From Minisyncoccota bacterium (lineage in GTDB: Bacteria > Patescibacteriota > Minisyncoccia > Phycocordibacterales > UBA918): DNA of 64,000 nucleotides. The stretch is taken from positions 4,065-68,064 of the forward strand of contig JAWKSP010000003.1 in the NCBI GenBank assembly GCA_041389025.1, written 5' to 3'. The first letter of the stretch is position 1. Every line of letters begins with the position of its first letter. The position numbers were made by a program, and so were the translations under genes. Below, piece after piece: positions 5,188-63,828 of the stretch. The notes below the pieces were generated by a model. The model did not search any database, was not told the DNA's origin, and saw only the letters and a program-made list of their open reading frames with translations.

Positions 5188-7929
5188 ATGTCTGAAGGAA
5201 TACCAAAACAATTCACTACTCCGGAGGAGGAGATAGCTTATTTGCGTGAACAAATAGCCAAACGCGAACAAGAGCTTTTAGCCAGAACACCTGAAGTCGA
5301 CCAATCTGATGTAGAAGCAGTTGGAAAACAAGAGATTAGAGAGTACGCTAGTTTTACTCCCAAAATGGTTCTAGAGAAAAATCATCAGCTGAAAGATACT
5401 GCTATTGCTATATCCGCTGAACAAGTCAGTGTCGCGTCTGATCCTGTAGAAGAAATCATGCAAGTTGCGACAGAGAAAGGAATTAAAAATGCTCTAACCG
5501 TTTTAGAAAAAATAGATAATGCTTATTTGGTCGATGAGGTACACCGTCGATTGGTTGAATATATTAAATCAGGAGTAGAGATGCAGGACTTAAAGGAGGG
5601 TACGCCAGCTTGGCATGTTCTTCACATGACTTTGTATGAAGTGACTTTGCCGGAGACAAAGTCAGTTAATGGACGTGAATATCAGTTAGCTGAGCTTATT
5701 GGTATGATGGAGCAGTTGTTTGCTGGCTTGCGAACAATTGGTTCAGAGCAATCACACAATCATTTTGCGATTGAAATTGCGGTGGCTGATAATAGCGACG
5801 ACATTGTTTTTTACGTGGCAATACCAAATAAGTTTGTAACTTTGTTTGAAAAGCAGGTTCTTTCCTTATTTCCGCATGCACAATTAATTCTCCAAGCTCA
5901 CGATTACAATATTTTTGTCGATAATGGTACTACTATTGTGTCTGAGGTTTCTCTTAAAAAACATCCGATTTATCCGGTGAAAACCCACGACAGTTTCGCT
6001 TCTGATCCCTTATCGGTGATTTTAAATGCTTTTTCAAAAATTGAACGAGAAGGTGGTGGAGCAGCGGTGCAAATATTGGTACGCTACCCGCAAAAAGAAT
6101 ACCGTAAAAGCTATGAAGGGGTCATAAAAAATATGCAAAAAGGTATGAAAGCCGGCGATGCCATTTCTCGTAGCTCACTTGGCGGTGAAATAATGGCCTC
6201 ACTGTCTGACTTTGTGTTTAGTAAATCAAACAAAGACGAAAACAAGGAAGTTGACTCAGATAAAATCCAGCTGTTCGGACAAAAAATAAAATCAGATATA
6301 GTGGAGACAAACATCCGTTTGGCGGTATCAGCTAGAGAAATTTCACGAGCAGAAGATATTTTAACCGAAATCGAATCCACTTTTCATCAATTTTCTTTGG
6401 TGGACGGCAACAGTTTTACCTTCAAGCGAGTAAGAGGAGGTTCGTTACGTCAGGCGGAACGACAATTTTCTTTTCGTGAATTTTCCAAGCATATTATCTT
6501 GCCGTTGTCTCTGACAGAGTTGTCTACCGTTATTCATTTACCTGCCAATGGCATCGCTTCTTCACCGCAGTTCAAGCAATCTCATGTAAATACCGCTCCG
6601 GCACCGACCGATATGCCGACCGAAGGTACTCTTCTTGGTATCAACACCCATCGCAATGTAGAGCGAAAAATCTTTATTACCGATGAAGATCGGGTACGAC
6701 ACTTCTATATTATCGGACAGACCGGTACCGGTAAGACATCATTGATGAAAAATATGATTGTGCAGGATATCGAGAGAGGCGATGGGGTGTGTATGATCGA
6801 CCCACACGGCACTGATATCGAGGATGTTTTAAGCGCGGTGCCGAAGGAACGTGAGCAGGATGTGATTTATTTTGATCCGTCACGACTAGATAAGATTGTC
6901 GCCTTAAACATGCTTGAGTATGACACGTCCAAGCCGGAACAAAAAACTTTTGTGGTCAATGAACTTTTTTCCATTTTCCAAAAGCTTTATGGTGGTAATC
7001 CTGAGTCAATGGGCCCAATGTTTGAGCAATATTTTAGAAATGCCACTTTACTAGTAATGGAGGATCCAGATAGTGGTAATACACTGATGGATATATCTCG
7101 GGTGATGGCTGATGCCAAGTACCGCAAAATGAAGTTGTCCAAGGCTACCAATCCGGTGGTGGTGCAATTTTGGAGTGAAATAGCTACCAAAGCCGGTGGT
7201 GAGGCTTCTCTGGAAAATATTGTGCCATATATTGTGTCTAAGTTTGATGTCTTTACCGCCAATGACTACATGCGACCGATTATCGGTCAGCAAAAATCCG
7301 CTTTCAATTTTAGACAAATAATGGACGAACGGAAGATTCTTTTGGTTAATTTATCCAAGGGTCGTTTAGGTGAAATAAATGCCAACCTTATTGGTATGAT
7401 TATTGTCGGAAAGATACTAATGGCGGCTTTGTCCCGGGTAGATGACCAAACTCGTGGCTTCCCACCTTTTTATTTGCATATGGATGAGTTTCAAAACGTA
7501 TCTACCAATTCTATTTCGGCGATTTTGTCTGAGGCTCGAAAATACAAACTCGGCCTTACAATCGCCCATCAATTTATCGCTCAGTTGGAACCGAGTATTA
7601 AAGACGCGGTGTTTGGAAACGTCGGTTCAATGGCTACTTTTCGAGTGGGAGCAGAGGATGCGCAGTTTTTAGAGTCACAATTTTCTCCGGTGTTTGGCGT
7701 AAATGACCTTATTAATATACCTAATTACAATGCGATAGTCAGGATATTAGCAAATGGTACGCCGACCAAGCCTTTTAATTTACGCACCATGCCTCCGGCA
7801 AAACTAGATCCAACCAGAGCAAATGCTCTCATTGACCTCAGTTATAGCCGATATGGACGATCAAGAGAGGAGGTGGAGGCGGAGATATCCGCTAGATATG
7901 CCAAAGAACCACCGGTTGGCTTAACTTGA
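5188..7929 (+). CDS. Large P-loop ATPase with a type IV secretion VirB4/VirD4 (TraC/TraG)-like C-terminal domain
   Basis: Walker A YIIGQTGTGKTSLMKNMI and Walker B-like HMDEFQNV. The C-terminal pattern RKYKLGLTIAHQFIAQL...VFGNVGSMATFRVG matches the T4SS ATPase family. There is no N-terminal TM segment and the N-terminal ~450 aa are unassigned. Confidence 0.55.
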   Translation: MSEGIPKQFTTPEEEIAYLREQIAKREQELLARTPEVDQSDVEAVGKQEIREYASFTPKMVLEKNHQLKDTAIAISAEQVSVASDPVEEIMQVATEKGIKNALTVLEKIDNAYLVDEVHRRLVEYIKSGVEMQDLKEGTPAWHVLHMTLYEVTLPETKSVNGREYQLAELIGMMEQLFAGLRTIGSEQSHNHFAIEIAVADNSDDIVFYVAIPNKFVTLFEKQVLSLFPHAQLILQAHDYNIFVDNGTTIVSEVSLKKHPIYPVKTHDSFASDPLSVILNAFSKIEREGGGAAVQILVRYPQKEYRKSYEGVIKNMQKGMKAGDAISRSSLGGEIMASLSDFVFSKSNKDENKEVDSDKIQLFGQKIKSDIVETNIRLAVSAREISRAEDILTEIESTFHQFSLVDGNSFTFKRVRGGSLRQAERQFSFREFSKHIILPLSLTELSTVIHLPANGIASSPQFKQSHVNTAPAPTDMPTEGTLLGINTHRNVERKIFITDEDRVRHFYIIGQTGTGKTSLMKNMIVQDIERGDGVCMIDPHGTDIEDVLSAVPKEREQDVIYFDPSRLDKIVALNMLEYDTSKPEQKTFVVNELFSIFQKLYGGNPESMGPMFEQYFRNATLLVMEDPDSGNTLMDISRVMADAKYRKMKLSKATNPVVVQFWSEIATKAGGEASLENIVPYIVSKFDVFTANDYMRPIIGQQKSAFNFRQIMDERKILLVNLSKGRLGEINANLIGMIIVGKILMAALSRVDDQTRGFPPFYLHMDEFQNVSTNSISAILSEARKYKLGLTIAHQFIAQLEPSIKDAVFGNVGSMATFRVGAEDAQFLESQFSPVFGVNDLINIPNYNAIVRILANGTPTKPFNLRTMPPAKLDPTRANALIDLSYSRYGRSREEVEAEISARYAKEPPVGLT

Positions 7930-30142: not shown

Positions 30143-30481
30143 ATGAAAAAAGTTCTTTTAGTAATTTTTTTGGTGTCACTGCCATTTTTGACAGGCTGTG
30201 GCCCGTTGCCGTATTACCCTACTAGTGTCCATGGTGGTATCCATGGTGGTGTATACCCTAGTGGAGTTGGGTACGGTAGGGTAGGTTACCCTGCCCACGG
30301 CGACTACCGCCCAATGAGGCGAGGGACGTCATTTAATTTTCCCGAAAGTGTTCAACACTTTCGGGGTAGGGTAAACGCCGTTGGGAATTTTCCAAATCAC
30401 GTCCCTACTCATGTAGGGAGAGATGGAATGTTTAGAAATAAGGGTGGATACACCCTTCCTCCACCGACACCAAGGTGGTAG
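30143..30481 (+). CDS. Gly/Pro/Tyr-rich small lipoprotein
   Basis: Signal peptide with an LTGC lipobox followed by GGIHGGVYPSGVGYGRVGYP repeats. Confidence 0.6.
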   Translation: MKKVLLVIFLVSLPFLTGCGPLPYYPTSVHGGIHGGVYPSGVGYGRVGYPAHGDYRPMRRGTSFNFPESVQHFRGRVNAVGNFPNHVPTHVGRDGMFRNKGGYTLPPPTPRW

Positions 30482-55448: not shown

Positions 55449-57631
<2,183 letters not shown>

Positions 57632-57635
<4 letters not shown>

Positions 57636-58022: not shown

Positions 58023-58496
58023 ATGCCAATGTTCATGTTTGAAATCGTGCAATCTGTCAAAGGTTCTCCTAATCCATCAGTTTATGATGAAGGATTGTCG
58101 TATACACCAGAACTTAGCGGAGCAGCTATGGTTGTTTACTGGGAATTTTTAAACGAAGAGGTTGCCAAAAAACACATAATAATAACAGATCATATAACCG
58201 AAAAAATTCCAGCTAGTGATAATCCTATTTGGTCTAAATACAGACAACTTGGTTCTGGTCTTGATATTTTTTATATCAAGCAACTGACTCCAGAAGAGGA
58301 GCTTGAGGTCAAAATGGCCATGGCTCGGGTGTTGTATAAAATGTATTTTGAGCTACTAGATCAGGAAACATTTGAAAGATTAACCGGACTAACGGTTAGT
58401 GTGGAAACATTGACGGAGCCAACAGCGCGAGAAAAAGGCCTTTTTTATAAAGAAATAAATGAAATAGTAGCTGAGGAATTTTACTGTGCTGTATAG
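58023..58496 (+). CDS. Hypothetical protein
   Basis: 157 aa with a strong SD (aaaggaggctgaaaATG), followed by a terminator. No motif was recognised. Confidence 0.5.
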   Translation: MPMFMFEIVQSVKGSPNPSVYDEGLSYTPELSGAAMVVYWEFLNEEVAKKHIIITDHITEKIPASDNPIWSKYRQLGSGLDIFYIKQLTPEEELEVKMAMARVLYKMYFELLDQETFERLTGLTVSVETLTEPTAREKGLFYKEINEIVAEEFYCAV

Positions 58497-58516
58497 GTAG
58501 TGAAATTCCTTAGTTA

Positions 58517-58559
58517 AACCGATATTGCGTTACTTAGTCACACAATATCGGTTTTTTTT
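58517..58559 (+). terminator. Rho-independent terminator
   Basis: aaccgatattg / caatatcggtt stem followed by T8. Confidence 0.75.
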
Positions 58560-58564
58560 GTTTC

Positions 58565-58632
58565 AATCCTCGCAAAATTGCCTTATTTAGTATAGTATAA
58601 TTTGGTTTTAGACACTTACGTAGTATTTTATA
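58565..58632 (+). repeat. Left copy of a 68-bp imperfect direct repeat carrying promoter-like boxes (TTGCCT...TATAAT)
   Basis: aatcctcgcaaaattgccttatttagtatagtataatttggttttagaca...gtattttata. About 85% identical to 61804-61872. Both copies start right after a terminator T-run. Confidence 0.8.
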
Positions 58633-58659: not shown

Positions 58660-58688
58660 TTGACTTATAAGCAAATATATATTATATT
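58660..58688 (+). promoter_or_regulatory. Sigma70-like promoter (TTGACT, 17-nt spacer, TATATT)
   Basis: Consensus boxes about 85 nt upstream of the 58771 ORF. Confidence 0.45.
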
Positions 58689-58740: not shown

Positions 58741-58770
58741 TGAATTGTAATTACTTATTAGGAGATTGAG

Positions 58771-59391
58771 ATGAGTTCAAAATCATCGCAACAAAAAAAT
58801 GTTAAAGTCAAAATTCTGATTCGTGGAATTTACCCAATACTTATGAATCCAGCTACGGAAGAGCTATTAAACCAACTTCCCGGAGCAGGTATATCGGCGG
58901 GGGCAAAGAAACCGAATAAAGACAGGACTCGTGAAGAGATTGCGGAAAGTCGAGTGATTCGAGATAAGAAGACAAAGAAAGTCGGTATTCCTGTCGAGTA
59001 CATGTATTCTTGTCTTAAGGAGGCGGGTCGTCATGTAATCTTTGAGGGTAAGAAGAAGATTTCTACCGCTGATTCTACTTTATTGTTTTCGTTTATGTCT
59101 ATTGACGAGCAATTTTTTCCGTTTATTGATCAAGATAGCGGTTATGAAATAGATGTTAGACGCGGAGTTAATCGTACCACCAAAGGCGCACAAGCAATCG
59201 TGCGTCCAAGGTTCGATACTTGGGCTTTTTACCTTACTATTGAGGTCGACACCAATGAAATCAATCTGGAAAAAGTCCGTATGGTGTTTGATCAGGCTGG
59301 TAAGAAAATTGGCTTGGCGGATTTTCGCCCTACCTGTAATGGGCCTTTTGGTCGGTTTGTGGTGGAAGAATGGAAAGAGATAAGTGCATAA
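58771..59391 (+). CDS. Hypothetical 206-aa basic protein; weak resemblance to a RAMP/Cas6-like Gly-rich C-terminal loop
   Basis: SD aggag. N-terminal beta-strand-like VKVKILIRGIYPILMNP. C-terminal IGLADFRPTCNGPFGRFVV Gly-rich segment. The Cas6/RAMP resemblance is an unverified guess. No confident homology. Confidence 0.5.
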   Translation: MSSKSSQQKNVKVKILIRGIYPILMNPATEELLNQLPGAGISAGAKKPNKDRTREEIAESRVIRDKKTKKVGIPVEYMYSCLKEAGRHVIFEGKKKISTADSTLLFSFMSIDEQFFPFIDQDSGYEIDVRRGVNRTTKGAQAIVRPRFDTWAFYLTIEVDTNEINLEKVRMVFDQAGKKIGLADFRPTCNGPFGRFVVEEWKEISA

Positions 59392-59468
59392 GGTGCTGTA
59401 CTGTACGGTACTGACCTGTGCGGTACGGTAAAGTAATCTGAAGTACTCTAGTCAACTCTTTTCTAAGG

Positions 59469-59559
59469 AGCTCGGTCCCTGTGAAGTCCAACTTCACAAA
59501 CCGAGCTATGTTCCGAGGATGTGTATCCTCGCTGATGATTCCGAAAGGATGAAAACAGA
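59469..59559 (+). ncRNA. Structured module A: 16-bp bipartite hairpin, AUGUUC linker, 6-bp hairpin (loop UGUGUA), CUGAUGA, 3-bp GAAA-tetraloop hairpin, GAAA
   Basis: AGCUCGGU...UGUGAAGU-CCA-ACUUCACA...ACCGAGCU. Then CGAGGA-UGUGUA-UCCUCG CUGAUGA U-UCC-GAAA-GGA-U GAAA ACAGA. Confidence 0.55.
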
Positions 59560-59636
59560 ATCATATAATGTATAGGCTCTCTCGTGAGGCGTACTGTCTG
59601 GTACTGCTTTGTACCGAATTGTCCCGTGAAGTGCGG

Positions 59637-59724
59637 ATCCGTGTCCCTGTGCTTCTGCATAAACACGGATAGCTCTCAAGGTGTGTACCTTGACTGATGA
59701 TCCTAAAAAGGTGAAAGTAAAAGA
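59637..59724 (+). ncRNA. Structured module B: diverged copy with compensatory changes in both small helices
   Basis: AUCCGUGU...ACACGGAU hairpin, AGCUC linker, UCAAGG-UGUGUA-CCUUGA CUGAUGA U-CCU-AAAA-AGG-U GAAA GUAAAAGA. Both small helices covary relative to module A. Confidence 0.55.
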
Positions 59725-59805
59725 AATTCACACAGTCTCGTATTTTAAGCTTTTGACCTGTTTAGATGCGTGTACAGCCGTGAAGACTAGTATTCTCTTC
59801 TTTGG

Positions 59806-59908
59806 AGTCTGGTCCCTTTAAGTTATATTCATAAAATATAACTTAAAAACCAGACTATGTTCCGAGGATGTGTATCCTCGCTGATGATTCCGAAAGGATG
59901 AAAACAGA
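59806..59908 (+). ncRNA. Structured module C: the 3' 52 nt are identical to module A, while the upstream hairpin has a different, fully compensated sequence
   Basis: AGUCUGGU/ACCAGACU outer stem (A has AGCUCGGU/ACCGAGCU). The inner stem is 12 bp, UUAAGUUAUAUU/AAUAUAACUUAA, unrelated to A's. The AUGUUC...GAAAACAGA core is then identical. Confidence 0.55.
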
Positions 59909-59950
59909 GGTATTTTGAAAATCAAATATTCTCAAAACAGGAGAGAAATT

Positions 59951-61738
59951 ATGAAACATCTTGCTCAATTTTTTCCGTTTGAGCGTTATCCGTCAATGAC
60001 AGATAATCAAGAAGCAGCCTTTAATTTTCTGGATAGTAATCAAAATGGTGGTATTATCGAAGCTCCTACCGGTACTGGTAAGACATCAATCGGTTATACT
60101 TGGCTGTCTTCATTCAAAGGAACTCGTTTCTATTTGGTGCCAAATAAAACTTTGGTACAGCAAGTAGTAGCGATGTTTCCCGATACTAAACCAATGTACG
60201 GACGTAACGAACATTCGTGTCTGTATTACAAGGATCGTGATTTAAGAGCTGATGAGGTGCCTTGTTCGTTATTGCGTAATTGTCCTCATAGGGTACTTGA
60301 AAGTGGTGAAACATATAGTCCTGGTTCAACTCCTTGCCCGTATTTGAAACAAAAGTACGAGGCTGGTTTGGGTGGGGGTATTATAGTTGCTACTTACGCT
60401 TTTTATTTTTACTCTGTTTTTCTGTTAAGACAGTTTACACCGACAGCTGTAGTAGTAGATGAGGCGCATTCGATTGCTAGAAGTATACGAGCAACTCTAG
60501 AATTTCGTATTACTGACCGTAAGCTTGTTTCTATTATTAAAACGCTAAAATCAGTAAAAGCAAAACAGGCTGGATTGATGGAAAAGTTTTTAAGTGAAAT
60601 GAAACTTGTTGTAAAAAAGCGTTCGCCTGGCAAGAGAACCTCAGATTCTATATTGTCGTACGATGAAATTGAACGTCTACTTAAGTGTCTTAACAGCATG
60701 GATATCAAAGAAATACGCAATGACATTAATAATGCTGTTCGTAAGTCTATTATCAGTCCGGTAGATGATTTTGAGATGTTAAAACAGTTAGACGTTATAA
60801 CTCGTGAACTTTATCGATATGTTAAGTCTTTAGGGTTTTCCCTGCCGCCTAAGCAAGAAAAAAGTAAAAAAAGACTTAATCCACTCGCTTTTACTTATGC
60901 CTTTTGGACAAGGAAAAAAGAGGGTGACGGTAGTGTTTGCTGTGAACTTATTGTGAAGGATCATTTTGTAGCTGGTCTTATAAAAGCTATGCTTCCAGCG
61001 AACTGTCTGGCGTGTTCTGCAACTATTGTTGATCCTAAAATGCTTTCATTTGAAACTGGAATTGAGGGTAAGTTTTTATCCTTGGGTTCAGGTTTTGATA
61101 ATGAAAAAACAGCGGTATTAATGCCAACAGATACACCAAATCTGGCGGTTAAAGAGCGGAATAAAAAAGATGTTACTAAGGCAATACGTCTTATGGTTAG
61201 GTCTGCTAAAGATTTAGCTCATGAAAACAAGCGTTCAGTTATTTTAGTTGTGTCTGAACTGGAGAGGCAAAAGGTATTGAAGTTTGCCACAGAAGAAGGT
61301 TTGACAGTAGTGTCTAACAATGAGAAGGAGAGTGCCAGACAAGCAATTTCACGCTTTGTTCAAGGAGAGGGGATGTGTTTGGTAGGTACTGTTGCTAATT
61401 ATGGTCAGGGTATAGATTTACCTGATGGTATGGCACCGGTCATTTTCTATTTTCGTCCAGCCTACCCTAATCCCAATGATCCGCAAACTGTATTTGAAGA
61501 AAATAGATACGGTAACGCGAGATGGGGTATATGGAATTGGCGAGTTATGATCGATCTCTTACAAGTACGAGGAAGAAACGTTCGTTCTGTAAGTGATAAA
61601 GGTGTAACAATACTGGTATCACAACAGTTTAGGCGGTTTGCCCGCACAGCTCTTCCAGAATGGCTTAGACCAGCCTATGTTAACGATAAAAATTTTGCTG
61701 AATGTTTATCTGAGGCAAAAAGAATAATTGATAGTTAG
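59951..61738 (+). CDS. XPD/DinG (Rad3)-family Fe-S cluster DNA helicase
   Basis: Walker A IIEAPTGTGKTS, DEAH-type VVVDEAHS, a four-Cys cluster between them (CLYY...C...C...C) and the helicase C-terminal_2 motifs (VGTVANYGQGIDLPD...GR..R). Confidence 0.75.
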   Translation: MKHLAQFFPFERYPSMTDNQEAAFNFLDSNQNGGIIEAPTGTGKTSIGYTWLSSFKGTRFYLVPNKTLVQQVVAMFPDTKPMYGRNEHSCLYYKDRDLRADEVPCSLLRNCPHRVLESGETYSPGSTPCPYLKQKYEAGLGGGIIVATYAFYFYSVFLLRQFTPTAVVVDEAHSIARSIRATLEFRITDRKLVSIIKTLKSVKAKQAGLMEKFLSEMKLVVKKRSPGKRTSDSILSYDEIERLLKCLNSMDIKEIRNDINNAVRKSIISPVDDFEMLKQLDVITRELYRYVKSLGFSLPPKQEKSKKRLNPLAFTYAFWTRKKEGDGSVCCELIVKDHFVAGLIKAMLPANCLACSATIVDPKMLSFETGIEGKFLSLGSGFDNEKTAVLMPTDTPNLAVKERNKKDVTKAIRLMVRSAKDLAHENKRSVILVVSELERQKVLKFATEEGLTVVSNNEKESARQAISRFVQGEGMCLVGTVANYGQGIDLPDGMAPVIFYFRPAYPNPNDPQTVFEENRYGNARWGIWNWRVMIDLLQVRGRNVRSVSDKGVTILVSQQFRRFARTALPEWLRPAYVNDKNFAECLSEAKRIIDS

Positions 61739-61767: not shown

Positions 61768-61802
61768 ATGGCAAGGAGTTTTTAACTCCTTGCCATTTTT
61801 TA
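61768..61802 (+). terminator. Rho-independent terminator after the helicase gene
   Basis: atggcaaggagtt-ttt-aactccttgccat followed by T6. Confidence 0.8.
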
Positions 61803-61803
61803 T

Positions 61804-61872
61804 AATCCTCGCAAAATTACTTTATTTAGTATAGTATAATTTGGTTTTAAACAACCTAAGTGGTATTTTATA
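61804..61872 (+). repeat. Right copy of the 68-bp direct repeat, abutting the alaS start codon
   Basis: aatcctcgcaaaattactttatttagtatagtataatttggttttaaaca...gtattttata. The alaS ATG is 10 nt downstream. Confidence 0.8.
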
Positions 61873-61881
61873 TTTGAAATT

Positions 61882-63828
61882 ATGAGTGGGAACGAAATCA
61901 GACAAAAATATTTGGAATTTATGGAGAAAAATGGTCACGCGGTCATACCGTCGGCTGCTTTGGTGCCCGAGAATGACCCAACTACGCTGTTTACCGGTAG
62001 TGGGATGCAGCCTTTGATTCCGTATTTGCAGGGTGAGGCGCACCCCAACGGGGTGCGCCTCACGGACTCTCAAAAATGTTTCCGCGCCAATGATATCGAA
62101 GAAGTGGGAGACAACCGTCACACTACTTTTTTTGAAATGCTTGGTAACTGGTCTTTGGGTGATTATTTTAAAAAAGAACAGTTGCGGTGGTTTTTTACCT
62201 ACCTAGTAGACGAGGTTGGACTTGATCCAGAGCGTATCTACGTCACTGTGTTTGCGGGAGACGAGAGTCTGGGTATTCCGGCTGATGAAGAATCGGTGGC
62301 TATTTGGCAAAAATTATTTAAAGAAAAGGGAATTGAAGCCAAAGCGGTGCATGTTGGGAGTGAAGAAGCAGGTTATGAGCTTGGTATGCAAGGTGGGCGT
62401 ATTTTCTACTATGACGCTGGTAAAAACTGGTGGAGTCGTTCTGGTACACCAGATAAGATGCCGGTAGGAGAGATTGGGGGTCCTGACAGTGAGGTTTTTT
62501 ATGATTTTGGTCCAGAATATGCCACTCATCCTGATTATAAGGATAAAGCGCCACATCCAAACAGTGACTCAGGACAGTTTGTGGAAATCGGCAACTCGGT
62601 CTTCATGGAGTATGTGAAGCAGGAAGATGGTAGTTTTACTAAGTTACCACAGCGTAATGTTGATTTTGGTGGCGGCTTAGAGCGTATTGCGGCGGCTAAA
62701 AATAACGACCCAGATATATTTAAGATAGATTTGCTGTGGAATGTGGTAGAAAAAATAGAAAATTTATCTAAGCGTACATACAAAGATAACTTAGTGGCTT
62801 TTCGAGTAATTACTGATCATATTCGGGGAGCAGTTTTTTTGATTGCCGATGGTGTCTTGCCCAGCAATACTGATCAAGGTTATTTTGTACGTCGTCTTTT
62901 ACGTCGCTCAGTCCGTTTTGCCGATCAGTTAGCGGTGCCGGCGGGGAAGTTTGCTGAGTTGGCAGCTGGAGTAATTGATACTTATGGTGAACATTATCCA
63001 GCCCTTAAGACTAAGGAAAAGGAGATTGAGTCAGTAATTGCTAAAGAAGAAGAGCAATTTAGAAGTACTTTAGAAAGTGGTCTGAAGCAGTTTAATAAAA
63101 TTTCCTTACAGGTACACGTGACTTCCAAGGAGGTTGATGGGAAGAAGGTGATCGATAAAAGTGTAGCACCAGTGGCAAAAAAAGCGATTAGTGCACAAAA
63201 TGCTTTTGATCTATACACTACTTATGGTTTTCCGATTGAACTCACCGAGGAGATTGCGACAGAGAAAGGCTTGGTGGTGGATCGAGTTGGTTTTGAAAAA
63301 TTGATGTTAGAACATAGAGATAAATCACGCGTTGGAGCCGAACAGAAATTTAAAGGAGGCTTGGCTGATCATTCAGAAAAGGTAGTGCAGTATCATACGG
63401 TTACTCACTTGCTGTTAGCTGGTCTCCGCAAGGAACTTGGTGATCATGTGCATCAAGCCGGCTCAAATATCACTGGTGAGCGCTTACGCTTTGATTTTAC
63501 GCACCCTGATAAGGTTCCTCGTGAGGTTTTGGATAAGGTAGAGGAGTATGTTAACAATGCCATTAAAATTGGTGGGGAAGTAACAATTGAAATGTTACCA
63601 AAGGAGGTGGCACAAGCCGATAAGACTATCGAAGCTAGTTTTTGGGAGCGATATCCGGATGAAGTTAAAGTTTATACTATCAAAGGAGCTGATAATACAG
63701 TGTTTTCTAAGGAGTTATGTGGCGGACCACACGTGAAAAGATTGGCAGAAATTTCTGGAAATTTTAGGATAACAAAAGAAGAATCTTCCTCGGCTGGAGT
63801 GAGAAGAGTTAAGGCGGTTTTGGAGTGA
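61882..63828 (+). CDS. alaS: Alanyl-tRNA synthetase (catalytic, tRNA-recognition and editing domains; no C-Ala domain)
   Basis: Class II catalytic core, editing-domain HxxxH (HTVTHLL) and CGGPHV zinc motifs. It ends at 648 aa. Confidence 0.9.
   Translation: MSGNEIRQKYLEFMEKNGHAVIPSAALVPENDPTTLFTGSGMQPLIPYLQGEAHPNGVRLTDSQKCFRANDIEEVGDNRHTTFFEMLGNWSLGDYFKKEQLRWFFTYLVDEVGLDPERIYVTVFAGDESLGIPADEESVAIWQKLFKEKGIEAKAVHVGSEEAGYELGMQGGRIFYYDAGKNWWSRSGTPDKMPVGEIGGPDSEVFYDFGPEYATHPDYKDKAPHPNSDSGQFVEIGNSVFMEYVKQEDGSFTKLPQRNVDFGGGLERIAAAKNNDPDIFKIDLLWNVVEKIENLSKRTYKDNLVAFRVITDHIRGAVFLIADGVLPSNTDQGYFVRRLLRRSVRFADQLAVPAGKFAELAAGVIDTYGEHYPALKTKEKEIESVIAKEEEQFRSTLESGLKQFNKISLQVHVTSKEVDGKKVIDKSVAPVAKKAISAQNAFDLYTTYGFPIELTEEIATEKGLVVDRVGFEKLMLEHRDKSRVGAEQKFKGGLADHSEKVVQYHTVTHLLLAGLRKELGDHVHQAGSNITGERLRFDFTHPDKVPREVLDKVEEYVNNAIKIGGEVTIEMLPKEVAQADKTIEASFWERYPDEVKVYTIKGADNTVFSKELCGGPHVKRLAEISGNFRITKEESSSAGVRRVKAVLE

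What the first reader, a model, noticed from the sequence alone, without database searches (positions are those of the whole stretch)
58771..59391. 206-aa protein of unknown function possibly partnered with the structured RNAs
It has a strong SD and its own promoter and leader. It is basic and carries a C-terminal Gly-rich loop (IGLADFRPTCNGPFGRF) and an N-terminal beta-strand (VKVKILIRGIYPILMNP). These are loosely reminiscent of RAMP/Cas6-type RNA-binding proteins that recognise stem-loops, but the similarity is weak and I cannot assign it. Its position directly upstream of three conserved hairpin modules makes an RNA-binding or processing role a testable hypothesis.
Basis: inference. Interest (0 to 1): 0.6.

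Follow-up and report, generated by a model that had tools for sequence, protein, structure and literature searches.

The report
Vipr RAMP protein with ribozyme-cut guides
The 206-residue protein is a Vipr protein, a small Cas7-like RNA-binding protein of the VIPR RNA-guided DNA-recognition systems first described in 2026. It sits with three guide RNAs separated by self-cleaving hammerhead ribozymes and a DinG-like helicase, so it is a new example of a just-described class rather than a new kind of system.

Summary
The ORF at 58771-59391 is real: 206 aa, pI 9.35, AGGAG 6 nt before the ATG, and a promoter-like site upstream.

A profile of 37 homologues matches the solved SUSP1 Vipr protein (PDB 36pp) over its full length (E 2.5e-14; hhalign 98%). 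An AlphaFold model (pLDDT 88) matches only Cas7-type RAMPs.

The 523-nt spacer downstream is a VIPR guide array, not a plain set of hairpins:
- It holds three tracts of 12-15 pentanucleotide NGY/NN repeats. Two of them are the only sites in the 64 kb that reach 8 of 9 in-register units.
- Each tract ends in a covarying stem-loop tail.
- Each tail is followed by a type III hammerhead ribozyme. Covariation over 12 copies from 7 loci supports the fold.

A DinG/XPD-like helicase follows. It is conserved downstream of vipr in 23 of 28 Patescibacteria loci and in none of 49 non-Patescibacteria genome loci.

The Cas6-type stem-loop recognition and processing role is not supported: the protein is Cas7-like, and the ribozymes supply the cleavage.

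VIPR systems, including hammerhead arrays and helicase accessory genes, are described in two 2026 preprints. I found no convincing target. Verdict: a new member of a known kind.

The parts
58557..58632 (.). Left copy of a roughly 76-nt direct repeat that bounds the cassette
   Evidence: The repeat is 58 nt at 90% identity, plus a 32-nt extension at 72%, to 61796-61872. Its 25-nt and 15-nt cores occur only at these two sites in 64 kb.
58660..58688 (+). Promoter-like site TTGACT-17-TATATT upstream of vipr
   Evidence: 10/12 matches. No promoter-like site lies on the + strand inside the array. That it functions as a promoter is inferred.
58760..58764 (+). Shine-Dalgarno AGGAG, 6 nt before the ATG
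   Evidence: Read directly from the sequence.
58771..59391 (+). vipr gene: 206-aa Cas7-like RAMP protein
   Evidence: PDB 36pp_D 'SUSP1 Vipr protein' matches at E 2.5e-14 over the full length. hhalign gives 98.1%. AF2 pLDDT is 88. The Foldseek top 50 are all Csm3 or type VII Cas7. phrog_4652 matches at 2.7e-18. The protein is 100% identical to MEZ4104565.1, a hypothetical protein of Ca. Paceibacterota.
59392..59466 (+). vrRNA1 guide tract: 15 pentanucleotide units, starting at the base after the vipr stop codon
   Evidence: 9 of 15 units are NGY in register, against 0-2 in the other four registers; binomial P = 2.5e-6. It is one of only two sites in the window with 8 of 9 in-register units.
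59467..59507 (+). vrRNA1 3' tail: GGA, an 8-bp outer stem, a CCC bulge and an inner hairpin
   Evidence: RNA fold z = -5.3. The outer stem covaries among 6 tails, with 47 of 48 standard pairs.
59506..59560 (+). Hammerhead ribozyme 1 (type III); predicted cleavage between 59513 and 59514
   Evidence: Rfam RF00008 covers model positions 1-54/54 at 25.9 bits, below the gathering score of 48.5; E = 4.5e-4 in an 86-nt search. Covariation is shown.
59575..59634 (+). vrRNA2 guide tract: 12 units, with the core 9 starting at 59590
   Evidence: 9 of 12 units are NGY in register, against 0-2 in other registers; P = 1.5e-7. It is the second 8-of-9 site in the window.
59635..59670 (+). vrRNA2 3' tail
   Evidence: It has the same GGA-NN-NNN-GT-CCC junction and an 8-bp outer stem; fold z = -3.8.
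59668..59722 (+). Hammerhead ribozyme 2; predicted cleavage between 59675 and 59676
   Evidence: CUGAUGA and GAAA cores with a 7-bp stem I and a 3-bp stem II. Rfam did not detect it. Its stem III is only 3 bp.
59734..59803 (+). vrRNA3 guide tract: 14 units, degenerate
   Evidence: 6 of 14 units are NGY in the register fixed by the tail, against 0-2 in other registers; P = 1.4e-3.
59804..59856 (+). vrRNA3 3' tail
   Evidence: Fold z = -6.2. The outer stem is compensated relative to vrRNA1.
59855..59909 (+). Hammerhead ribozyme 3; predicted cleavage between 59862 and 59863
   Evidence: It is 95% identical to the HH1 module over 62 nt. Rfam RF00008 gives a partial match of 16.1 bits.
59951..61738 (+). 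Accessory (vap-like) DinG/XPD-family helicase. The start is probably the ATG at 59951, after a GGAGAG, not the TTG at 59915.
   Evidence: Pfam Helicase_C_2 4e-15, plus DEAD and ResIII. PADLOC typeIV_DinG PDLC01439 6e-41 over the full length. phrog_2488 2e-38. A homologue lies downstream of vipr in 23 of 28 Patescibacteria-clade loci. The start is inferred from the MKH... starts in L003 and L010.
61770..61801 (+). Terminator-like hairpin plus T-run after the helicase
   Evidence: Read from the sequence: ggcaaggag-ttttta-actccttgcc followed by attttttt.
61796..61872 (.). Right copy of the flanking direct repeat, just upstream of alaS (ATG at 61882)

Best explanation
The ORF encodes a Vipr protein, the single Cas7-like RAMP of a VIPR (Viral Interference Programmable Repeat) system. 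The locus is a compact 3.2-kb cassette: promoter, vipr, three vrRNAs, and a DinG-like helicase.

Shown here:
- Homology and fold of the protein.
- The three pentanucleotide-repeat tracts, each with a covarying 3' tail.
- Three type III hammerheads between the tracts.
- Conserved synteny with the helicase.

Inferred from the characterised SUSP1 and P. fulva systems:
- The cassette is transcribed as one RNA from the vipr promoter.
- The hammerheads cut after C59513, C59675 and C59862. This would release vipr mRNA plus vrRNA1, HH1 plus vrRNA2, HH2 plus vrRNA3, and HH3 plus helicase mRNA.
- Vipr protomers polymerise one per 5-nt unit along each guide tract. They sequester the NGY triplet through the G-loop (D184, F185, R186), the thumb (R145) and strand 1 (N26), and they present the NN dinucleotides.
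- The filament reads double-stranded DNA as NN-x-NN-x with one skipped base per unit, forming an R-loop triplex.
- The helicase is then recruited to the bound target to unwind or clear it, instead of or in addition to simple transcriptional blocking.

The likely role is defence of the Patescibacteria host against phages or other mobile elements.
For: Protein:
- The profile hit to PDB 36pp 'SUSP1 Vipr protein' is E 2.5e-14 over residues 7-196.
- hhalign gives 98.1%.
- The AF2 model has pLDDT 88 and pTM 0.82.
- The Foldseek top 50 are all Cas7-type RAMPs with probability 1.0.
- Residues shown by mutation or structure to bind GGY or DNA in SUSP1 (H17, K82, R138, D177, W178, R179) align to N26, R87, R145, D184, F185 and R186. 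All of these except R87 are invariant or at least 90% conserved in the family.

RNA:
- The only two 8-of-9 NGY tracts in 128 kb of strand sequence lie in this spacer.
- The register is kept for 12-15 units up to a fixed GGA-NN-NNN-GT-CCC junction; P ranges from 1.5e-7 to 1.4e-3.
- The tails fold with z from -3.8 to -6.2 and covary.
- The hammerheads have invariant CUGAYGA and GAAA cores and a U16.1-A15.1 pair. Cells are 92.7% paired and 12 of 16 pairs show compensatory change, against 34-47% paired when partners are slid.
- Rfam RF00008 matches over its full length.

Context:
- NGY tracts flank vipr homologues in most of the fetched phage and bacterial loci with enough flank.
- The helicase is downstream in 23 of 28 Patescibacteria-clade loci.
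- There is no internal promoter or terminator in the array.
- There is no CRISPR array in the window.

Literature: VIPR architecture, hammerhead-interspersed arrays and helicase vap genes are described in 10.64898/2026.04.26.720920.
Against: - The first G of the canonical GGY is not conserved here; position 1 is mostly T. The G1-contacting His17 is Asn. The repeat is therefore the degenerate YNNNG type that the preprint mentions only in its methods.
- vrRNA3 is weak, with 6 of 14 units.
- The Rfam hammerhead scores are below the gathering threshold (25.9 against 48.5), and HH2 is not detected by Rfam at all. Stem III is only 3-4 bp in the window copies.
- The tail is a bulged stem-loop, not the SUSP1 pseudoknot.
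- No convincing natural target was found.
- Nothing in this clade has been tested experimentally.
- The helicase step is pure inference. The preprints say the role of accessory helicases is unknown.
Confidence: 0.85

Rival explanations
1. The protein is a Cas6- or Cas5-type endoribonuclease that recognises the three stem-loops and cleaves the precursor RNA at them.
For: It has a RAMP fold with a G-loop. Conserved hairpins lie directly downstream. Cas6 enzymes do bind repeat hairpins (established knowledge).
Against: All top structural matches are backbone Cas7 subunits, not Cas6 or Cas5. The homologue with a solved structure forms a filament, one protomer per 5-nt repeat. Each module carries its own hammerhead with strong covariation, so cleavage needs no protein. 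Relatives without hammerheads keep the repeats. No catalytic His/Tyr/Lys arrangement was identified, though this was not specifically tested.
Confidence: 0.04
2. The locus is a degenerate remnant or minimal variant of a type IV CRISPR-Cas system: a Csf2-like Cas7 plus a DinG helicase, with the RNA modules as decayed CRISPR repeats.
For: The helicase's best defence-library hit is PADLOC 'typeIV_DinG, CAS-IV-A associated', at 6e-41 over the full length. The protein is Cas7-like.
Against: No CRISPR array lies anywhere in the 64 kb. There is no Cas6, Csf1 or Csf3. The protein hits no Cas profile in PADLOC, Pfam or NCBIfam. The canonical Csf4 profile PDLC01729 hits only at 1.6e-5. The RNA has 5-nt periodicity, not repeat-spacer structure. 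The same architecture is conserved intact across many Patescibacteria, so it is not a decay product.
Confidence: 0.04
3. The gene and the RNAs are only neighbours. The protein is a phage-derived DNA replication or recombination factor. The hammerhead modules belong to an unrelated small mobile or self-cleaving RNA element inserted between two genes.
For: Phage homologues lie in early or recombination regions. Hammerheads occur in many phage and mobile contexts (established knowledge). The cassette is flanked by direct repeats.
Against: NGY/NN tracts accompany vipr homologues in unrelated phages and bacteria, with or without hammerheads. The first tract starts at the base after the vipr stop codon. 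Vipr-vrRNA complexes have been purified and solved for a homologue.
Confidence: 0.03

Closest known systems
VIPR systems (Vipr protein plus vrRNA), type II of Escherichia phage SUSP1 and a Pseudomonas fulva prophage (bioRxiv 10.64898/2026.04.26.720920 and 10.64898/2026.04.26.720927; PDB 36pp)
   Same: The protein is homologous over its full length, with the G-loop D-aromatic-R, the thumb Arg and the helix-1 basic residue retained. Guide RNAs lie next to the gene and are built of 12-15 pentanucleotide repeats with a structured 3' tail. The locus is a minimal two-gene unit without a CRISPR array.
   Different: Identity is about 26%. The repeat is NGY/NN rather than GGY/NN, and His17 is Asn. The tail is a bulged stem-loop rather than a pseudoknot. 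The guides are separated by hammerheads rather than being separate roughly 100-nt transcripts. The accessory gene is a 595-aa helicase instead of a small DNA-binding Vap. The host is a Patescibacteria chromosome, not a phage.
VIPR types with hammerhead-interspersed arrays (types I and V, fig. S19) and with enzymatic accessory genes (types III-V, nucleases or helicases), as listed in the same preprint
   Same: Both features, ribozyme-separated vrRNAs and a helicase accessory gene, are named in the preprint.
   Different: The text available here does not say which type combines a helicase with hammerheads, or whether Patescibacteria loci are included. By elimination the helicase type is probably type IV, because types III and V are said to be the only nuclease types. 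The hammerhead examples shown are types I and V. I could not assign the type, because figures and data S4 are not held.
Class 1 CRISPR backbone Cas7 proteins (Csm3 of type III-A, Cas7 of type VII)
   Same: The RRM core, thumb hairpin and G-loop fold are shared (Foldseek probability 1.0, TM 0.5-0.59). In the Vipr homologue, the protein forms a filament along a guide with periodic base flipping.
   Different: Sequence identity is 12-17%. The periodicity is 5 nt, with 2 nt read and 3 sequestered, rather than 6 nt. There is no crRNA repeat handle, no Cas5, Cas6 or large subunit, and no adaptation module.
Type IV-A CRISPR-Cas with DinG (Csf4)
   Same: A Cas7-like RNA-guided DNA binder is paired with a DinG/XPD-family helicase rather than a nuclease. 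The helicase matches a PADLOC type IV-associated DinG profile at 6e-41.
   Different: There is no CRISPR array and no Csf1, Csf3 or Cas6. The canonical Csf4 profile matches only weakly, at 1.6e-5. No solved helicase is detectable by sequence.
Type III hammerhead ribozyme (Rfam RF00008)
   Same: The cores are CUGAUGA and GAAA. Stems I and II are closed and stem III is open. The U16.1-A15.1 pair is present, and C sits at the cleavage position.
   Different: The score is below the Rfam gathering threshold. Position 10.1-11.1 is U-U in the window copies. Stem III is short.

Membership tests
VIPR system | Vipr protein homologous to characterised Vipr proteins | tested here: met
   PDB 36pp_D matches at E 2.5e-14 over the full length. 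hhalign gives 98.1% and E 9e-14.
VIPR system | GGY- and DNA-contacting residues of SUSP1 Vipr (H17, K82, R138, D177, W178, R179) | tested here: met
   They align to N26, R87, R145, D184, F185 and R186. Four are identical or conservative. H17 to N and W178 to F are substitutions that keep H-bonding and aromatic character respectively. All except R87 are at least 90% conserved in the family.
VIPR system | vrRNA of tandem pentanucleotide GGY/NN (or related YNNNG/NNNGG) repeats next to vipr, at least 4 and typically 9-16 units | tested here: met
   There are three tracts of 15, 12 and 14 units with 9, 9 and 6 NGY units in register. They are unique in the window. The variant is NGY, because the first G is not conserved.
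VIPR system | Conserved structured 3' tail capping each repeat tract | tested here: met
   An 8-bp outer stem, a CCC bulge and an inner hairpin occur in all three, with covariation among 6 tails from 2 loci. The shape differs from the SUSP1 pseudoknot.
VIPR system | Minimal locus: vipr plus one accessory gene, no CRISPR array or other cas genes | tested here: met
   vipr and the helicase lie between housekeeping genes. No CRISPR-like repeats occur in the 64 kb. No Cas profile hits were found for the protein.
VIPR system | Vipr-vrRNA ribonucleoprotein that binds dsDNA by the NN-x-NN code | not testable with these tools
   This needs pull-down, binding or repression assays. The computational target search was inconclusive.
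RAMP superfamily, Cas7-like | RRM (ferredoxin-like) core with thumb hairpin and C-terminal glycine-rich loop | tested here: met
   In the AF2 model, strands 10-19, 126-133, 140-148, 152-160 and 196-204 combine with helices 75-88 and 166-180. The Foldseek top 50 are Csm3 or type VII Cas7. The G-loop is G181-F196.
Cas6 endoribonuclease | Two RRM domains, repeat-hairpin binding and a catalytic site for crRNA cleavage | tested here: not met
   The protein has a single RRM domain of 206 aa. No Cas6 appears among the top 50 structural matches, and there are no Cas6 profile hits. Catalysis itself was not tested.
Hammerhead ribozyme type III (RF00008) | CUGANGA and GAAA cores, three stems in type III topology, NUH cleavage triplet | tested here: met
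   The cores are invariant in 12 copies. Stems I, II and III covary: 92.7% paired and 12 of 16 pairs compensated. The cleavage triplets in the window are UUC, CUC and UUC.
Hammerhead ribozyme type III (RF00008) | Score at or above the Rfam gathering threshold | tested here: not met
   HH1 scores 25.9 bits and HH3 16.1 bits, against a threshold of 48.5. HH2 is not reported.
Hammerhead ribozyme type III (RF00008) | Self-cleavage | not testable with these tools
   This needs an in vitro transcription and cleavage assay.
DinG/XPD (superfamily 2, Fe-S) helicase | DEAD/DEAH motor domains, Helicase_C_2 domain and a four-Cys cluster insert | tested here: met
   Pfam Helicase_C_2 4e-15, plus DEAD and ResIII. 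GTGKT and DEAH are read in the translation. Four Cys (HSC, VPC, RNC, TPC) are conserved in L010. Pfam DEAD_2 is below threshold (14.5 against 21), and there is no PDB hit by sequence.
Type IV CRISPR-Cas | CRISPR array plus Csf1, Csf2, Csf3 and usually Cas6/Csf5 | tested here: not met
   There is no array, and no such genes lie between atpC and alaS.

The most novel reading that the evidence does not exclude
The Patescibacteria clade could be a distinct, chromosomally fixed VIPR subtype. In it the whole system would be one self-processing transcript: mRNA, guide, ribozyme, guide, ribozyme, guide, ribozyme, mRNA. The Vipr filament would hand its R-loop triplex to a dedicated DinG-like helicase. 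That would make it a functional and perhaps evolutionary bridge between VIPR and the nuclease-free type IV-A CRISPR-Cas systems. The relaxed NGY repeat with His17 replaced by Asn would be a second dialect of the code. The flanking 76-nt direct repeats would mark the cassette as a mobile unit that travels between housekeeping loci of ultra-small bacteria.
Probability: 0.15. Interest if true: 0.7.

Novelty: new member of a known kind. Interest (0 to 1): 0.42.

Why it matters
VIPR is a newly reported RNA-guided DNA-recognition mechanism, proposed to predate CRISPR. Only the small DNA-binding-accessory type II systems have been studied biochemically.

This locus is a clean, compact example of a variant whose accessory helicase has no known role. 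It spans 3.2 kb and encodes one 23-kDa protein, three guides and three self-cleaving ribozymes.

It comes from the Patescibacteria, a lineage with few known defence systems. Its conserved synteny in 23 loci makes it a good starting point for two questions. What does a helicase do at a Vipr R-loop triplex? And does the NGY repeat use the same one-base-skip code?

For annotation, it shows that thousands of 'hypothetical' proteins of about 200 aa can now be named (7,729 cluster representatives). It also shows that ORFs called across their flanking repeat arrays are probably spurious.

Tried and rejected
- Pfam and NCBIfam gave nothing for the protein. PADLOC gave only a 0.037 hit to PD-Lambda-5_A, which I dismissed.
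- Rfam at gathering threshold over 64 kb, and at E<=10 over 1.7 kb, found no hammerhead. Only a search restricted to 86 nt recovered RF00008. The sR55 C/D-box and CRISPR-DR25 hits are by-products of the CUGAUGA core and stem II.
- Self-targets: the best NN-x-NN matches in the window and fetched loci are at chance level, for example 19 of 30 and 16 of 24.
- Viral-contig scans with 18-base patterns gave 1, 5 and 0 exact hits. None extended into flanking units, for example 19 of 28 and 20-22 of 34. I take these as chance.
- A metagenome scan with a 22-base pattern from vrRNA1 gave one hit, L021 1996-2027 on the minus strand. It lies antisense in a membrane-protein ORF on a 52% GC contig and reaches 28 of 34 on extension. 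Codon-periodic hydrophobic sequence inflates such matches, so I left this inconclusive.
- phmmer of the helicase against PDB gave no hit.
- A 7-of-9 NGY tract at 30245 lies inside a Gly-rich 112-aa ORF and is coincidental.
- I considered whether ORF157 (58023-58496) belongs to the system. It lies outside the direct repeats, has its own terminator, hits no family, and is not conserved next to vipr in other loci. I rejected it.
- I could not assign the VIPR type (I-VII), because the preprint's figures and data files are not held.
Full report
**Observation.** AGGAG lies 6 nt before the ATG. A TTGACT-17-TATATT site lies at 58660-58688. The protein is basic, with pI 9.35. Both quoted motifs exist. 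The C-terminal one is the most conserved stretch of the family: G181, R186, P187, G191, F193 and G194 are invariant in 37 homologues. The window comes from a Candidatus Paceibacterota MAG, and the protein is 100% identical to MEZ4104565.1, annotated as hypothetical.

**What the protein is.**
- Pfam and NCBIfam give nothing. PHROGs gives phrog_4652, of unknown function, at 2.7e-18 over the full length.
- A profile of 37 homologues (A1) searched against PDB sequences hits one thing convincingly: chain D of 36pp, 'SUSP1 Vipr protein', 202 aa, E 2.5e-14, covering residues 7-196. Profile-sequence comparison gives 98.1% probability.
- An AlphaFold2 model built on A1 is confident, with pLDDT 88 and pTM 0.82. 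In Foldseek against the PDB, all top 50 matches are backbone Cas7-type RAMPs (Csm3 of type III-A, Cas7 of type VII) at probability 1.0 and TM 0.5-0.59, despite 12-17% identity.
- The family is large: 7,729 cluster representatives at E<=1e-3 and 500 at E<=1e-30.

**What Vipr is.** Two 2026 bioRxiv preprints (10.64898/2026.04.26.720920 and 10.64898/2026.04.26.720927) describe VIPR systems.
- They comprise a roughly 20-kDa ancestral RAMP (Vipr), usually one accessory gene (vap), and vrRNAs made of 9-16 (up to 30) YNNGG pentanucleotide repeats followed by a structured 3' tail.
- One Vipr protomer binds each repeat. It sequesters GGY and presents NN. The filament reads dsDNA as NN-x-NN and forms an R-loop triplex.
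- Seven types are defined. The text names hammerhead-interspersed arrays (examples from types I and V) and enzymatic accessory genes, nucleases or helicases, in types III-V.
- The role of the helicases is stated to be unknown.

**Residues.** Numbering the SUSP1 sequence from the printed alignment reproduces the published residue numbers. These align to window residues as follows:

| SUSP1 residue | Role | Window residue |
|---|---|---|
| H17 | contacts G1 | N26 |
| K82 | non-target strand clamp | R87 |
| R138 | thumb, contacts G2 | R145 |
| D177-W178-R179 | G-loop | D184-F185-R186 |

All except R87 are invariant or at least 90% conserved in the family.

**The RNAs.** The 523-nt spacer between vipr and the helicase holds three modules of identical design.
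- *A 5-nt periodic tract.* Counting units with G at position 2 and a pyrimidine at position 3, only two starts in both strands of the 64 kb reach 8 of 9 consecutive in-register units. They are 59392 and 59590, both in this spacer. With the register fixed by the tail, the tracts have 9 of 15, 9 of 12 and 6 of 14 NGY units, against 0-2 in the other four registers. The background frequency is 0.0985, giving binomial P of 2.5e-6, 1.5e-7 and 1.4e-3. Position 1 is mostly T, so the motif is NGY/NN, the degenerate 'YNNNG' form the preprint mentions. The His17-to-Asn change may go with this; that is inference. vrRNA1 begins at the base after the vipr stop codon.
- *A tail.* It consists of GGA-NN-NNN-GT-CCC, an 8-bp outer stem and a variable inner hairpin. 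Fold z-scores run from -3.8 to -6.2. The outer stem forms 47 of 48 standard pairs, with compensatory changes, among six tails from the window and its closest relative L010.
- *A type III hammerhead.* Rfam's RF00008 aligns over its full length to 59506-59560 at 25.9 bits, below the gathering score of 48.5, and was found only when 86 nt were searched. HH3 is 95% identical in its module. HH2 has the same cores but was not reported. Because these scores are sub-threshold, I collected 12 copies from 7 vipr loci and counted pairs on the hammerhead structure. Cells are 92.7% paired, and 12 of 16 pairs have changes on both sides. Slid controls give 34-47% paired. CUGAYGA, GAAA and the U16.1-A15.1 pair are invariant. 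The predicted cleavage sites are 59513|59514, 59675|59676 and 59862|59863.
- A strict motif scan finds these three hammerheads and no others in the window.
- No promoter-like or terminator-like site lies inside the array. A single self-processing transcript is therefore the simplest reading; this is inferred.

**Context.**
- The downstream ORF is a DinG/XPD-family helicase. Its start is probably the ATG at 59951. It matches Helicase_C_2 at 4e-15 and the PADLOC profile 'typeIV_DinG, CAS-IV-A associated' at 6e-41 over the full length. The canonical Csf4 profile matches only at 1.6e-5, and phrog_2488 at 2e-38. It has four conserved cysteines. No solved homologue is detectable by sequence.
- The order vipr, then a 0.3-1.5 kb RNA array, then the helicase recurs in different housekeeping neighbourhoods.
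- In a scan of GTDB species genomes, 23 of 28 Patescibacteria-clade loci carry the helicase homologue downstream at E<=2e-32. The other five contigs end within 2.7 kb of vipr. None of the 49 non-Patescibacteria loci carries it.
- NGY tracts flank vipr in most of the fetched loci with enough flank, including phages.
- Hammerheads occur in a subset of loci: the window, L010, L024, L033, L037, L039 and L044.
- The window has no CRISPR array.

**Cassette boundaries.** A direct repeat of about 76 nt (58557-58632 and 61796-61872) brackets promoter, vipr, array, helicase and terminator. Its core occurs only at these two places in the window. The right copy is the region just upstream of alaS. The cassette therefore looks like an insertion that duplicated the alaS upstream region. 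This was not tested further.

**Targets.** Using the published NN-x-NN rule, I found no self-target. Eighteen-base patterns gave 1, 5 and 0 exact hits in viral contigs, and none extended into adjacent units. A 22-base pattern gave one metagenome hit that extends only to 28 of 34 positions. It lies antisense in a membrane-protein gene on a 52% GC contig. I regard all of these as unproven.

**Verdict.** The specific model, Cas6-type recognition and processing of stem-loops, is not supported. The protein is Cas7-like, its homologue binds the repeats rather than the hairpins, and ribozymes do the cutting. The locus meets every sequence-level criterion of a VIPR system. It combines two features the preprint lists: hammerhead arrays and a helicase accessory gene. 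It is therefore a new member of a known, very recently described kind. What remains open is the helicase's role, whether the NGY dialect follows the same code, the natural targets, and the VIPR type assignment.

Noticed in passing
window 58557-58632 and 61796-61872: A direct repeat of about 76 nt (58 nt at 90% plus 32 nt at 72%) brackets the whole vipr-array-helicase cassette. Its core is unique to these two sites in 64 kb. The right copy lies immediately upstream of alaS, which suggests the cassette inserted with duplication of the alaS upstream region.
   Followed up: partly
window 56274-57635: The ATP synthase beta-subunit gene (atpD) is split. The reading frame leaves at about 57265 and returns at about 57370. 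The intervening conserved peptide ([38 protein letters not shown]) is in another frame. These are two compensating frameshifts, either an assembly error or a pseudogene.
   Followed up: partly
L008 5248-5519 (Gordonia phage UmaThurman, NC_031249.1): Five consecutive NGY/NN periodic tracts lie directly after the vipr homologue gp39. They coincide with the annotated 'hypothetical protein' gp40 (locus 5256-5579), which is therefore probably a vrRNA array miscalled as a CDS.
   Followed up: partly
L003 9380-9581; L012 8252-8621; L014 8972-9096; L005 9332-9561: In relatives, further NGY/NN tracts lie downstream of the helicase, forming a second array. The window has none there, only a terminator and the right direct repeat.
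   Followed up: partly
L010 1328-1400 and L011 140-215: The closest relative (78% identical protein) carries an extra vrRNA, of about 12 units plus a tail, upstream of vipr. The window lacks this. Its leader holds only the direct repeat and a promoter-like site.
   Followed up: partly
L071 382-2186 (Deltaproteobacteria MAG): A very long run of periodic tracts lies upstream of a vipr homologue: 22 tracts scored on the + strand and 21 on the - strand. This may be a large or staggered array that reads as periodic on both strands.
   Followed up: no
window 58023-58496: A 157-aa ORF has no hit in Pfam, PHROGs, PADLOC or NCBIfam. It has its own terminator hairpin (58516-58554), lies outside the cassette repeats, and is not conserved next to vipr elsewhere.
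   Followed up: partly
L021 1996-2027 (-), metagenome contig Ga0105048_10163296: This is the single exact match to the first 11 NN units of vrRNA1 under the one-base-skip rule. It lies antisense within a 259-aa membrane-protein ORF and reaches 28 of 34 positions on extension. It could be a target or a codon-periodicity artefact.
   Followed up: partly
window 30245-30290: A 7-of-9 NGY periodic stretch falls inside a Gly-rich 112-aa lipoprotein-like ORF (30143-30481). I judged it coincidental.
   Followed up: yes
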